From the IMG/VR virus record IMGVR_UViG_2537562014_000001: a stretch of DNA of 8,395 nt. One strand, written 5' to 3'. The position numbers and the translations under genes are program-made. Below, piece after piece: positions 7,864-8,390 of the stretch; the stretch's first letter is position 1; every line of letters starts with the position of its first letter. The stretch is from a virus (taxonomy: Monodnaviria > Loebvirae > Hofneiviricota > Faserviricetes > Tubulavirales > Inoviridae). The notes below the pieces were generated by a model. The model made no database searches, was not told where the DNA came from, and saw only the letters and a program-made list of their open reading frames with translations.

Positions 7864-7963
7864 CCAGTGCGCACAATGACGTTATGTGTAAAAAAGGCCG
7901 CTGCGGTGGAGAGTATCGCAGCGGCCTTTTTCAACATAACGTGTAACACATTATGCGCACTGG
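7864..7963. other. XerCD-type phage attachment region: two inverted dif-like sites flanking a hairpin (attP forked-hairpin architecture)
   Basis: Site A (+, 7864-7893) CCAGTGCGCACAA-TGAC-GTTATGTGTAAA. Site B (reverse complement of 7933-7963) CCAGTGCGCATAA-TGTGTTACACG-TTATGTTGAAA. Both resemble E. coli dif GGTGCGCATAA-TGTATA-TTATGTTAAAT (recalled) in the XerC and XerD arms, with unequal central regions that would form a bulge when the arms pair in ssDNA. Confidence 0.6.
7891..7931. terminator. Strong symmetric hairpin (bidirectional terminator-like), core of the att region
   Basis: AAAAA-GGCCGCTGCG-gtggagagtat-CGCAGCGGCC-TTTTT: perfect 10-bp GC-rich stem (7896-7905 / 7917-7926), 11-nt loop, flanked by an A-tract and a T-tract. 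Confidence 0.55.
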
Positions 7964-8080
7964 CGTTGTGGTAGCTGAATTAAGGTGTCCGTGTGGGTAC
8001 ACAAACCCGGGAGTAAAAAAAGAAAACGCCTTATAACCTGGGAAAAGTTATAAAGCGTCCCGGAAAATCCAGAAATGGAT
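7960..8080. repeat. ~120-bp direct repeat, copy 1
   Basis: Aligns by eye with 8271-8390 at roughly 85% identity (CTGGCGTTGTG...GCTGAATT...CGTGTGGGTACAC...GTAAAAAAGAAAACGCC.TATAACCTGGGAAA.GTTATAA...GGAAAATCCAG). Begins at the outer edge of dif-like site B. Confidence 0.7.
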
Positions 8081-8093
8081 ACAATGAAATATC

Positions 8094-8131
8094 CGTCTCA
8101 GTCAACGTAATTTACGTCTCAATCAACGTGA
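8094..8131. repeat. Tandem pair of 15-16-bp direct repeats CGTCTCA(G/A)TCAACGT
   Basis: CGTCTCAGTCAACGT (8094-8108) and CGTCTCAATCAACGT (8115-8129) separated by AATTTA; iteron-like. Confidence 0.55.
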
Positions 8132-8270
8132 TATACGGCCTTAACTGACATTATGTGTCTACTACCTACTCACCCTCACATAGATGAGCAGCAAGACTAT
8201 AACAAGTAAACATTACGGCGGATAACACCTGCAGACCTCTTGTTGAAAATTCCGGCTCAAAAGACGGCCT

Positions 8271-8390
8271 CTGGCGTTGTGATGGCTGAATTGAGATGTT
8301 CGTGTGGGTACACCGGGAAGTAAAAAAGAAAACGCCCTATAACCTGGGAAAGTTATAAGGCGCACTGGAAAATCCAGGTAATTATGGGAT
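8271..8390. repeat. ~120-bp direct repeat, copy 2 (runs to the window edge)
   Basis: See copy 1. The internal imperfect inverted repeat AACGCC(T/C)TATAAC-CTGGGAAA(A)-GTTATAA(A/G)GCG is conserved in both copies. Confidence 0.7.

What the first reader, a model, noticed from the sequence alone, without database searches (positions are those of the whole stretch)
7960..8390. Two ~120-bp direct repeats (~85% identical) 311 bp apart, beginning exactly at the att site edge
Seen: 7960-8080 and 8271-8390 align along their length, with the SmaI-like CCCGGG, the block CGTGTGGGTACAC and an internal imperfect inverted repeat around CTGGGAAA conserved. Copy 1 starts at the outer end of dif-like site B; copy 2 contains GCGCACTGG, which matches the XerC-arm core. 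Not coding in any frame. Inference: they could be end repeats of a tandem or satellite element (as RS1/TLC-type elements flank CTXphi), remnants of earlier integrations at the same dif locus, or a structured small RNA pair.
Basis: seen in the sequence. Interest (0 to 1): 0.55.

Follow-up and report, generated by a model that had tools for sequence, protein, structure and literature searches.

The report
Repeated non-coding module of filamentous prophage
The two repeats are real: they are the first parts of two tandem copies of a roughly 300-base non-coding module that belongs to an E. coli filamentous phage integrated at the chromosome's dif site, each copy ending in a transcription terminator. 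This is an ordinary kind of phage intergenic DNA, though this particular module has not been described.

Summary
Window 7960-8080 and 8271-8390 align at 103 of 126 columns, far above shuffled controls. They are only the best-conserved heads of a longer tandem unit: 311 bp, followed by about 268 bp that runs off the window.

The unit is phage DNA, not host DNA and not a genome-wide repeat. In two circular phage genomes it directly follows the attP hairpin. In E. coli E24377A the same 436 bp is the left end of a dif-integrated filamentous prophage. Only 30 of 5,426 complete E. coli genomes carry it. All chromosomal copies I examined sit in dif-locus prophage arrays. So 7960 onward is the start of the next element in a tandem array.

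Copy number per element ranges from 0 to 3. The unit travels with unrelated replication genes, and a sister phage lineage lacks it. It is therefore accessory, not a replication origin.

The one clearly selected feature is an intrinsic terminator on the phage coding (minus) strand of each copy. The stem is conserved and tolerates G-T wobbles on that strand only; the loop varies; the T-run is nearly invariant. A position-conserved -10-like hexamer about 170 nt upstream allows, but does not prove, one small RNA per copy.

This is a new member of a known kind; interest is low to moderate.

The parts
7863..7962 (-). attP forked hairpin of the left-hand prophage. It consists of two inverted dif-like sites around a perfect 15-bp stem (7891-7905 / 7917-7931) that is flanked by an A-run and a T-run. 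It is context for the finding, not part of the repeat.
   Evidence: Inverted repeats I9, I11 and I21. The single-stranded DNA fold is -44.7 kcal/mol, z = -12, with a 6-nt bulge where the central region lies. The same hairpin is at the right end of the E24377A prophage.
7949..7959 (-). XerC-binding arm (TTATGCGCACT; reverse complement AGTGCGCATAA). It marks the junction between the left prophage and the next element.
   Evidence: E24377A attL reads ATTTAACATAATATACATTATGCGCAC|TGGCGTTG. That is chromosomal dif (XerD arm plus central region) fused to this arm and then to the unit.
7960..8270 (-). Unit 1: one complete 311-bp non-coding module.
   Evidence: nhmmer match over the full profile, E = 1.6e-78. 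It is 99.7% identical to E24377A L001 10001-10311.
8271..8395 (-). Unit 2: the first 125 bp of the second module, cut by the window end. The full copy is about 268 bp in E24377A.
   Evidence: L001 10311-10578 shows the complete copy.
7960..8005 (.). 'Head start' of unit 1 (CTGGCGTTGTGG...GGGTACAC). It is repeated at 8271-8312. Its first ~32 nt flank this type of attP hairpin even in phages that lack the unit.
   Evidence: L115 (no units) has CTGATGTTGTGGTGGGTAAACTGAGATGCCG after the same XerC arm. L041 RepC phages keep only 34 nt of it.
8015..8058 (-). Intrinsic terminator of unit 1 on the minus strand. The 12-bp stem is 8026-8037 / 8047-8058, the loop is 8038-8046, and the T-run TTTTCTTTTTTT corresponds to 8026 down to 8015.
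   Evidence: The terminator scan finds it in the identical E24377A sequence.
8322..8363 (-). Intrinsic terminator of unit 2 on the minus strand. The stem is 8332-8343 / 8352-8363, the loop is 8344-8351, and the T-run corresponds to 8332 down to 8322.
8060..8072 (-). Small 4-5-bp hairpin just upstream (on the minus strand) of the unit 1 terminator. Its counterpart in unit 2 is at 8365-8377.
   Evidence: RNAalifold helix, columns 234-248; 95% of cells are paired.
8094..8129 (-). Two 15-nt direct repeats, ACGTTGAYTGAGACG, spaced 21 bp start to start. Other unit types have one copy.
   Evidence: In the whole 8.26-kb phage genome the motif occurs only inside the units.
8196..8201 (-). -10-like hexamer TATAGT preceded by TGT (extended -10 form). 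It is the candidate promoter for a ~175-nt RNA running from 8189 to 8015.
   Evidence: A TAnnnT hexamer sits at this alignment column in 25 of 26 unit variants (TATAGT, TACAAT or TATGAT). The -35 is weak. The standard promoter scan finds nothing.
8208..8226 (.). Most conserved primary-sequence block of the unit, AAACATTACGGCGGATAAC. Its function is unknown.
   Evidence: Alignments.
8216..8271 (.). 'Tail' of unit 1 (...GACCTCTTGTTGAAAATTCCGGCTCAAAAGACGGCCT), a weak imperfect hairpin. It ends where unit 2 begins.
   Evidence: Only 3 pairs are supported in the consensus fold.

Best explanation
**What it is.** The two repeats are the well-conserved heads of two tandem copies of a non-coding phage module, about 270-310 bp long.

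The module belongs to a family of E. coli filamentous (inovirus) phages and satellites. These integrate at dif the way CTXphi does: a forked attP hairpin in the single-stranded genome is recombined by host XerC. In the circular phage genome the module sits between the end of the secretin gene (gene IV) and attP, the position where CTXphi carries ctxAB. In a prophage it is therefore the first thing after the attL junction.

In this window, 522-7959 is one prophage, truncated on the left by IS100. Position 7960 onward is the left end of the next element in the array.

**How it works.**
- Shown: each copy carries, on the phage coding and packaged strand (the window minus strand), a hairpin followed by a T-run. 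This pair is under selection as an intrinsic transcription terminator.
- Inferred: after integration, the strong bidirectional terminator inside the attP hairpin ends up at the other end of the prophage. The module's terminator is then what stops late-operon transcription from running out of the prophage.
- Inferred, weaker: the roughly 170 nt upstream of each terminator, starting at a position-conserved -10-like hexamer, may be transcribed as a small RNA. Each copy would then be a small accessory non-coding gene, and the 0-3 copies would be paralogues with different central sequences.
- Inferred: the duplication arose by unequal recombination in tandem or mixed prophage arrays.
For: **Phage origin**
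- The circular 9.6-kb record NZ_AP045060.1 and the circularly permuted 8,258-bp IMG/VR genome both have the attP hairpin directly followed by the units.
- In E24377A the same 436 bp (99.8% identical) lies between attL and the secretin gene of a dif-locus prophage.
- Strain 503025 has five tandem prophages, each with two units.

**Restricted distribution**
- 30 of 5,426 E. coli genomes carry it.
- There is no true hit among one-genome-per-species contigs.
- The phage collection has no match.
- Plasmid copies lie among phage remnants: attP hairpins, truncated secretin or zot genes, or a plasmid Xer site. One plasmid group carries an orphan copy with no recognisable phage gene nearby.

**Accessory and modular**
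- Copy number is 0, 1, 2 or 3 in elements that share at least 97.7%-identical assembly genes.
- The units accompany both GPA-type and three divergent G2P-type replication proteins.
- A sister lineage has the same attP and 88%-identical replication and regulatory DNA, but no unit.

**Terminator**
- The scan finds one per unit, on the minus strand only.
- Across 26 variants, 98.5% of stem cells pair.
- Loop entropy is 0.75, against 0.18-0.28 for the stem arms and 0.18 for the T-run.
- On the minus strand the stem shows 14 wobbles and 4 mismatches. On the plus strand it shows 1 wobble and 17 mismatches.
- Where the unit is missing (L041 RepC phage), a short hairpin plus a T-rich run occupies the same place (my reading of the sequence).

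**Small-RNA option**
- A -10-like hexamer sits at the same column in 25 of 26 variants.
- The predicted RNAs fold better than shuffles, z = -4.2 and -3.1.
- An orphan plasmid copy that is only ~74% identical still has a perfect stem, a T-run and TACAAT.
Against: - No expression data exist, so termination and any small RNA are predictions.
- The promoter is weak (-35 matches 3 of 6), and the consensus scan found no promoter in the region. The hexamer's positional conservation may simply reflect general conservation of that block.
- Only one true compensatory double substitution supports the stem. The evidence is conservation plus wobble asymmetry, not covariation.
- No conserved structure exists outside the terminator region, there is no Rfam match, and no antisense target was found in the phage.
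- The conserved primary-sequence blocks and the 21-bp-spaced direct repeats would fit a DNA-binding protein as well as an RNA.
- A second or third terminator in series adds little unless each copy has its own promoter.
- The sister lineage manages without a comparable terminator at the junction.
Confidence: 0.6

Rival explanations
1. Only the terminator matters. The rest of each unit is non-functional intergenic filler, and the extra copies are neutral by-products of unequal recombination in prophage arrays. There is no small RNA and no cis-acting role.
For: - Copy number varies from 0 to 3 among phages with near-identical genes.
- The centre of the unit is indel-rich and poorly conserved.
- No consensus promoter was found, and no conserved structure exists beyond the terminator.
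- The region is visibly recombinogenic: mixed arrays, duplicated hairpin-plus-unit blocks, and IS insertions.
Against: - Several blocks outside the terminator are invariant or nearly so across variants that differ by 20-35% overall. Examples are GTTATC..GC.GTAATGTTT, the TAnnnT hexamer and ACGTTG..GAGAC.
- The 3.67-kb satellites, which have little room for filler, keep one full unit.
- An orphan plasmid copy keeps the stem, the T-run and the hexamer intact.
Confidence: 0.22
2. The units are cis-acting single-stranded DNA signals of the phage: a minus-strand origin or a packaging signal or enhancer. They were duplicated because extra copies give a replication or packaging advantage, as in Ff miniphages that multiply their intergenic region.
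For: - The position is the same as the Ff intergenic region, directly after gene IV.
- The selected hairpin lies on the packaged strand.
- Satellites that must be packaged by a helper carry one unit.
- Packaging signals of integrative filamentous phages can be short hairpins and are mostly unknown (bioRxiv 10.1101/2023.12.30.573655).
Against: - The L041 RepC phage has the same assembly genes, is present in five tandem copies, and has no unit.
- The sister lineage, with the same type of replication protein and the same attP, has none.
- Apart from attP, the non-coding block that perfectly accompanies this assembly module, satellites included, is the GC-rich region between the units and the secretin gene, not the unit.
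- The nearly invariant T-run right after the stem and the tolerated G-T wobbles fit an RNA terminator better than a DNA hairpin (inference).
- No hairpin in the unit is long enough to mimic a -35/-10 promoter as in the f1 minus origin.
Confidence: 0.1
3. The unit is an accessory sequence for Xer recombination, like the ~180-bp PepA/ArgR or PepA/ArcA-binding regions next to the XerC arm of cer and psi. It would promote FtsK-independent recombination between array junctions or resolution of replicative-form multimers.
For: - The unit abuts the XerC arm on the same side as cer/psi accessory sequences (comparison with cer/psi is from my own knowledge).
- Related elements also use plasmid Xer sites.
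Against: - I saw no ARG box or ArcA-type repeat with correct spacing (by inspection only).
- The part nearest the XerC arm is replaced by an unrelated sequence in type-2 elements.
- Second and third copies would be too far from the site to act.
- Phages with the same attP lack the unit.
- CTX-type integration uses the single-stranded hairpin and needs no accessory DNA (PMC4439123 and PMC4266046 describe the pathway).
Confidence: 0.04
4. The unit is, or contains, the plus-strand replication origin nicked by the phage replication protein.
For: - CTXphi has a complex 167-bp origin with several inverted repeats close to attP (PMC4439123).
- The unit has 21-bp-spaced direct repeats.
Against: - The same units accompany a GPA-family protein and three G2P lineages that are under 50% identical or not alignable.
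- Copy number varies from 0 to 3.
- The sister lineage with an 88%-identical GPA replication region has no unit.
Confidence: 0.03

Closest known systems
CTXphi-type dif-integrating filamentous phages and their tandem arrays (CTXphi/RS1 in Vibrio cholerae; Ypfphi in Yersinia pestis; CUS-1 in E. coli K1)
   Same: - Two inverted dif-like sites form a forked hairpin in the single strand.
- attL and attR are hybrid sites consistent with XerC exchange.
- Arrays are tandem and mixed, and include gene-poor satellites.
- A variable 'cargo' slot lies between the assembly or secretin genes and attP (PMC4266046).
   Different: - Here the cargo slot holds 0-3 copies of a non-coding ~300-bp module instead of genes such as ctxAB or YPO2280a/2281.
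- The assembly protein is only ~33% identical to any phage in the reference collection.
- The unit has no match in that collection.
Ff (f1/M13/fd) intergenic region and its duplication in miniphages
   Same: - It is a non-coding region directly after gene IV.
- It carries hairpins on the packaged strand.
- It is prone to tandem duplication.
   Different: - No long packaging-signal-type hairpin and no promoter-mimic hairpins are present.
- It is not linked to the replication protein.
- It is dispensable in related phages.
Intrinsic (Rho-independent) terminators and the terminator-ended small RNAs of prophages or 3' UTRs
   Same: - A 10-12-bp stem with a 4-10-nt variable loop is followed by a 10-12-nt T-run.
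- The element is strand-specific.
- The length from the candidate -10 to the terminator, 140-175 nt, is typical of enterobacterial small RNAs.
   Different: - No expression evidence exists, there is no Rfam family, and the promoter is weak.
- The stem is A+T-rich, with 4-5 G-C pairs.
REP/BIME/ERIC-type dispersed intergenic repeats
   Same: It is a short non-coding repeat containing an imperfect palindrome.
   Different: - It is not dispersed: it occurs in 0.55% of E. coli genomes, and in every locus examined it lies inside dif-locus prophage arrays or among phage remnants on plasmids.
- Copies are in tandem and in one orientation relative to attP.

Membership tests
CTX-type dif-integrating element (context of the repeat) | Two dif-like sites in inverted orientation that fold into a forked hairpin with an unpaired central region in the single-stranded genome | tested here: met
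   Window 7863-7962 on the minus strand folds at -44.7 kcal/mol, z = -12, with a 6-nt bulge between the XerC-arm stem and the rest.
CTX-type dif-integrating element (context of the repeat) | Prophage flanked by hybrid sites at chromosomal dif, with the XerC arm exchanged | tested here: met
   E24377A attL is the dif XerD arm plus central region joined to the phage XerC arm and the unit. attR is the phage hairpin joined to the chromosomal XerC arm GGTGCGCATAA. The locus is ydeT'-hipA'.
CTX-type dif-integrating element (context of the repeat) | Integration catalysed by host XerC on single-stranded DNA | not testable with these tools
   Needs genetics, such as integration assays in a xerC mutant.
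Intrinsic terminator | Stable stem-loop immediately followed by a T-run on the transcribed strand | tested here: met
   Two sites on the minus strand, one per unit, against 0.8 expected in shuffles. The T-run is nearly invariant (entropy 0.18) and 98.5% of stem cells pair.
Intrinsic terminator | Selection acts on one strand, as shown by tolerated G-U pairs | tested here: met
   14 wobbles and 4 mismatches on the minus strand, against 1 wobble and 17 mismatches on the plus strand.
Intrinsic terminator | RNA 3' ends form at the T-run | not testable with these tools
   Needs Term-seq or in vitro transcription.
Small regulatory RNA gene | Own promoter and a discrete transcript | tested here: inconclusive
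   A -10-like hexamer is conserved in position in 25 of 26 variants, but the -35 is weak and the consensus scan finds no promoter. There are no expression data.
Small regulatory RNA gene | Conserved secondary structure with covariation, or membership of a curated family | tested here: not met
   Rfam gives nothing above E = 0.02 and nothing near any gathering score. RNAalifold finds only the terminator and one 4-bp helix. There is one compensatory change.
REP/ERIC-type genome-wide repeat | Many dispersed copies per genome in most strains | tested here: not met
   30 of 5,426 genomes carry it. In every locus examined the copies lie in prophage arrays or among plasmid phage remnants.
RS1/TLC-type satellite element | Self-contained element with its own replication or regulatory genes and att site | tested here: not met
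   The unit has no open reading frame. Real satellites of 3.67 kb exist in L041, and the unit is only one component of them.
Ff-type packaging signal or minus-strand origin | Present in every phage that uses the same assembly proteins or host priming | tested here: not met
   It is absent from the L041 RepC phage, which has the same assembly genes, and from sister lineage L115.
Ff-type packaging signal or minus-strand origin | Confers packaging or priming on heterologous DNA | not testable with these tools
   Needs transduction or single-strand-to-duplex conversion assays.
cer/psi accessory sequences | ArgR or ArcA site plus PepA binding at a fixed distance from the XerC arm | tested here: inconclusive
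   Inspection only. TGAAT half-sites and TGTTA repeats are present but wrongly spaced, and no binding data exist.

The most novel reading that the evidence does not exclude
Each unit is an independently transcribed small RNA gene. The family would form a set of paralogous phage-borne small RNAs with a shared promoter-proximal block and terminator, but different central sequences. They would be carried as non-coding cargo in the slot where CTXphi carries cholera toxin, and shared by helper phages, their satellites and plasmid remnants. If so, dif-integrating filamentous phages of E. coli would convert their hosts through regulatory RNA rather than protein.
Probability: 0.3. Interest if true: 0.6.

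Novelty: new member of a known kind. Interest (0 to 1): 0.3.

Why it matters
**Annotation.** Position 7960 is a junction between two prophages, not between a prophage and the host. The repeats identify the secretin-side end of a little-studied family of E. coli dif-integrating filamentous phages and satellites. These occur in enterotoxigenic and other human and animal isolates, often as arrays of five or more copies.

**Biology.** The module is a compact, recognisable marker of this family. It shows that the cargo slot of such phages can hold non-coding DNA under selection.

**If the units are transcribed.** They would be a testable example of filamentous phages carrying regulatory RNAs.

**If they are not.** The finding is ordinary: a duplicated terminator-bearing intergenic segment.

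Tried and rejected
- **Rfam search** of 7600-8395 at a permissive threshold gave only chance-level hits: a plant microRNA model and the thr leader matching the attP hairpin, and GlmZ at 15 bits.
- **Phage reference collection:** no match to the unit. The whole window matched phage records only through IS100.
- **One-genome-per-species scan:** 30 hits, all consistent with chance for an 18-base pattern. One two-hit contig turned out to be a 10-bp satellite.
- **Metagenome scan:** 15 true loci, but nearly all were the variants already seen, so little diversity was gained.
- **IMG/VR search with the secretin protein:** six loci, mostly cut at the gene end.
- **Consensus promoter scan:** none on either strand.
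- **RNAalifold:** no conserved fold outside the terminator region.
- **Antisense targets of the putative RNA within the phage genome:** nothing beyond shuffled expectation.
- **The 15-nt direct repeat elsewhere in the phage, as a possible operator:** found only inside the units.
- **Folding of the neighbouring GC-rich non-coding blocks to find a packaging-signal-like hairpin:** unremarkable, z about -1.7 and -1.8.
- **Other motifs:** I considered DnaA-box, IHF, sigma-54, ARG-box and ArcA-box resemblances by eye and rejected them.
- **Literature:** I found no description of this module. The UPphi phages (PMC7307601) are a different, IKe/I2-2-like group. The Ypfphi review (PMC4266046) describes genes, not repeats, in the equivalent position.
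Full report
**1. The observation**

The repeat is real. The repeat finder reports three collinear direct-repeat blocks joining 7960-8072 to 8271-8377, at 84-90% identity, with spacings of 311, 306 and 305 bp. A global alignment of 7960-8080 with 8271-8390 gives 103 identities in 126 columns and a score of 74. Five hundred shuffles averaged -15.4 and never exceeded 1.

CCCGGG is not kept in copy 2. And the repeat is longer than 120 bp. Using the identical sequence in E. coli E24377A, which continues past the window end, the whole 311 bp from 7960 to 8270 is one unit. 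It is followed head-to-tail by a second unit of about 268 bp. The first ~112 bp are 84% identical, the middle is weakly similar and rich in indels, and the last ~55 bp are 85% identical. The window contains unit 1 and the first 125 bp of unit 2. No reading frame is open for more than 60 codons.

**2. What surrounds it**

- Window 1-521 is the end of IS100.
- Window 522-7959 is a filamentous prophage with its genes on the minus strand. It has a Zot-type assembly protein, a coat protein A homologue and a GPA-family replication endonuclease. On the plus strand it has a protein with a TolA C-terminal domain. Its secretin gene is cut by IS100.
- Window 7863-7962 holds two inverted dif-like sites around a perfect 15-bp stem. 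As single-stranded DNA this region folds into a forked hairpin of -44.7 kcal/mol (z = -12), with a bulge at the position of the central region. That is the attP architecture of CTXphi-type elements, also proposed for Ypfphi (PMC4266046).

**3. The repeats are phage DNA**

The 436 bp from 7960 to 8395 occur at 99.8% identity in E24377A. There they lie between the chromosomal gene remnant ydeT' and the secretin gene of a prophage that ends at hipA', which is the dif locus.

The left junction reads ATTTAACATAATATACATTATGCGCAC|TGGCGTTG. This is the XerD arm and central region of E. coli dif, then a XerC arm, then the unit. The right junction is the phage hairpin ending in the chromosomal XerC arm.

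Two circular genomes settle the question. In the 9.6-kb circular record NZ_AP045060.1 the hairpin is followed directly by the two units and then the secretin gene. The same is true of an 8,258-bp IMG/VR genome, whose ends join seamlessly inside unit 2.

Strain 503025 carries five tandem copies of the 8.26-kb phage, each with two units. This explains the 'many places per genome' in the first search. In an array, whatever follows an attP hairpin belongs to the element on its right. So window 7960 onward is the left end of a further element that the window does not reach.

**4. Distribution**

- Only 30 of 5,426 complete E. coli genomes have the sequence.
- All chromosomal loci I opened are at the dif locus.
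- Plasmid copies in E. coli and E. albertii lie among attP hairpins, truncated secretin or zot genes and insertion sequences. One follows a plasmid Xer site, ATTTAACATAATGTACGTTATGCGCAC.
- A scan of one genome per species gave only chance hits.
- The phage collection gave none.
- Metagenomes gave 15 true loci with the same variants.

This is not a REP/ERIC-type repeat.

**5. Anatomy of the unit**

An alignment of 26 distinct copies shows the following parts, read on the window plus strand:

- A 45-50-nt 'head start' (CTGGCGTTGTGG...GGGTACAC).
- An A-run and a hairpin.
- A small hairpin.
- One or two copies of ACGTTGAYTGAGACG (as read on the minus strand), spaced 21 bp apart.
- A variable, indel-rich centre.
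- A very conserved block, AAACATTACGGCGGATAAC.
- A tail ending in GACGGCCT.

The head start is a separate piece. Its first ~32 nt follow this type of attP hairpin even in phages with no unit. Elements with a second type of attP hairpin have a different spacer before the same core.

**6. What is under selection**

The hairpin with its T-run reads as an intrinsic terminator on the minus strand, which is the strand of the phage genes and of the packaged DNA. The scan finds one per unit on that strand only.

- Across variants, 98.5% of stem cells pair.
- The loop is free to vary: entropy 0.75, against 0.18-0.28 for the stem arms. The T-run is nearly invariant, at 0.18.
- Non-Watson-Crick positions are G-T wobbles on the minus strand (14 wobbles, 4 mismatches) but C-A mismatches on the plus strand (1 wobble, 17 mismatches).
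- There is only one true compensatory double change. The case therefore rests on conservation and strand asymmetry, not covariation.

A nearly invariant T-run and tolerance of wobbles fit an RNA-level terminator better than a DNA hairpin; that step is inference. Outside this region RNAalifold finds nothing convincing, and Rfam has no match.

**7. What the unit is not**

Copy number per element is:

- 0 in the L041 phages with a 'RepC' replication protein, present in five tandem copies.
- 1 in the UTME-13 phages and in the four 3.67-kb satellites in L041.
- 2 in the E24377A, 503025 and 504211 phages and in the circular record.
- 3 in the JNE25-003 and Sx181 phages.

All the full phages share assembly genes that are at least 97.7% identical.

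The units accompany a GPA-family replication protein and three G2P-family lineages that are under 50% identical or not alignable. That excludes a protein-specific plus-strand origin.

A sister lineage (L115) shares 88% nucleotide identity with the window over the replication gene, the regulators and attP. Its secretin stop codon is 43 nt from the XerC arm, and it has no unit. Neither origin, and nothing needed for integration, therefore depends on the unit in that replication type.

Apart from attP, the non-coding block that always accompanies this assembly module, satellites included, is the GC-rich ~220 bp between the units and the secretin gene. That block is the better packaging-signal candidate. 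The unit is therefore accessory.

**8. Most likely function**

*Shown:* each unit ends in a selected terminator on the coding strand, about 50 nt before the att junction.

*Inferred:* in the circular form the late operon is also backed by the bidirectional terminator inside the attP hairpin. After integration that hairpin is at the far end of the prophage, and the unit's terminator is what remains between the operon and host DNA. Where the unit is absent in this lineage, a short hairpin with a T-rich run sits in its place (my reading).

*Weaker inference:* a TAnnnT hexamer (TATAGT, TACAAT or TATGAT) occupies the same column in 25 of 26 variants, about 140-175 nt upstream of the terminator. It has a TG extension in some variants and a poor -35. 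The predicted RNAs fold better than shuffles, z = -4.2 and -3.1. An orphan plasmid copy only ~74% identical keeps the hexamer, a perfect stem and the T-run. Each unit could thus be a small terminator-ended transcription unit, which would also explain why extra copies persist.

Against this, the consensus scan sees no promoter, no target was found in the phage, and there are no expression data.

Within my best explanation I put the structural conclusions at about 0.85 or higher and the terminator at about 0.75. An independent small RNA I put at about 0.3.

**9. Rivals**

- Filler plus terminator, with neutral duplication (0.22).
- Single-stranded DNA signal such as a minus-strand origin or packaging enhancer (0.10).
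- Xer accessory sequence of the cer/psi type (0.04).
- Plus-strand origin (0.03).

The evidence and the refuting results are listed in the respective fields.

**10. Comparison with the known, and novelty**

The context is a member of the CTXphi/Ypfphi/CUS-1 kind of element: hairpin attP, XerC-type junctions, tandem and mixed arrays, and satellites. The unit occupies the cargo slot that holds ctxAB in CTXphi and two unknown genes in Ypfphi (PMC4266046).

I found no description of the unit in the literature searched. The UPphi phages (PMC7307601) are a different, IKe-like group.

As a kind of thing, a duplicated intergenic segment with a terminator is ordinary. I rate it a new member of a known kind, with interest 0.3. 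The most novel reading still open is a family of phage-borne small RNAs carried as non-coding cargo (probability about 0.3).

Noticed in passing
window 7278-7643 (+): The left-hand prophage encodes a 121-aa protein with an N-terminal hydrophobic leader that looks like a signal peptide and a TolA C-terminal domain (Pfam PF06519, E = 4.5e-12). Filamentous phage coat protein III binds host TolA domain III during entry. A phage-made periplasmic copy could therefore act as a decoy that blocks superinfection. This is my inference and is untested.
   Followed up: partly
L041 9459-24152 (NZ_AP045072.1 1584459-1599152): Four tandem copies of a 3,674-bp element. Each has only a G2P-family replication gene, a single-stranded-DNA-binding protein gene, two unknown genes, one unit, the GC-rich block and the attP hairpin. 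There are no assembly genes. It looks like an RS1-like satellite of the neighbouring full-length phages.
   Followed up: partly
L041 24208-24300; L042 28468-28560 and 28934-29030: A second, sequence-distinct attP-type forked hairpin (ACAATGCGCACAAGAGCGTTATGTG...CTTATGCGCACTG). In L041 it lies 20 nt after the first hairpin. In L042 it is duplicated together with a unit core, with a period of 466 bp.
   Followed up: partly
L003 5933-5959 (plasmid pUTAK-3, NZ_CP157161.1): A remnant of a type-2 element (unit core, GC-rich block, 3' part of the secretin gene) sits next to a plasmid dif-like site, ATTTAACATAATGTACGTTATGCGCAC. This suggests these phages also integrate at plasmid Xer sites.
   Followed up: partly
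window 1-521 and 522-815: IS100 (IS21 family; the IstB end; 99% identical to copies in Yersinia and E. coli phage records) has inserted into the secretin gene of the left-hand prophage. Only the first ~100 codons remain, so this copy cannot export particles on its own.
   Followed up: partly
window 7665-7775: A GC-rich non-coding block with an imperfect inverted repeat (CAGCCGCACCGC...GCGGTGCGGTACGGCTG). It is conserved upstream of the attP hairpin in E24377A (L001 ~17860-17940) and in the circular record (L002 ~2050-1960), which have a different replication protein from the window phage. It is a candidate cis-acting signal. The fold of the E24377A version is not remarkable, z = -1.8.
   Followed up: partly
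L001 10580-10800 (beyond the window's right end): A ~220-bp GC-rich (58%) non-coding block lies between the last unit and the secretin stop codon. It is present in all phages with this assembly module and in the satellites, including phages without units. This makes it the better packaging-signal candidate. Annotation pipelines call different tiny genes in it on either strand.
   Followed up: partly
L115 (NZ_CM128593.1 2417155-2438262): A sister lineage of dif-integrated filamentous prophages, present as two tandem copies. It has the same attP hairpin and an 88%-identical GPA replication region, but different assembly and secretin genes, and its secretin stop codon is only 43 nt from the XerC arm.
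   Followed up: yes
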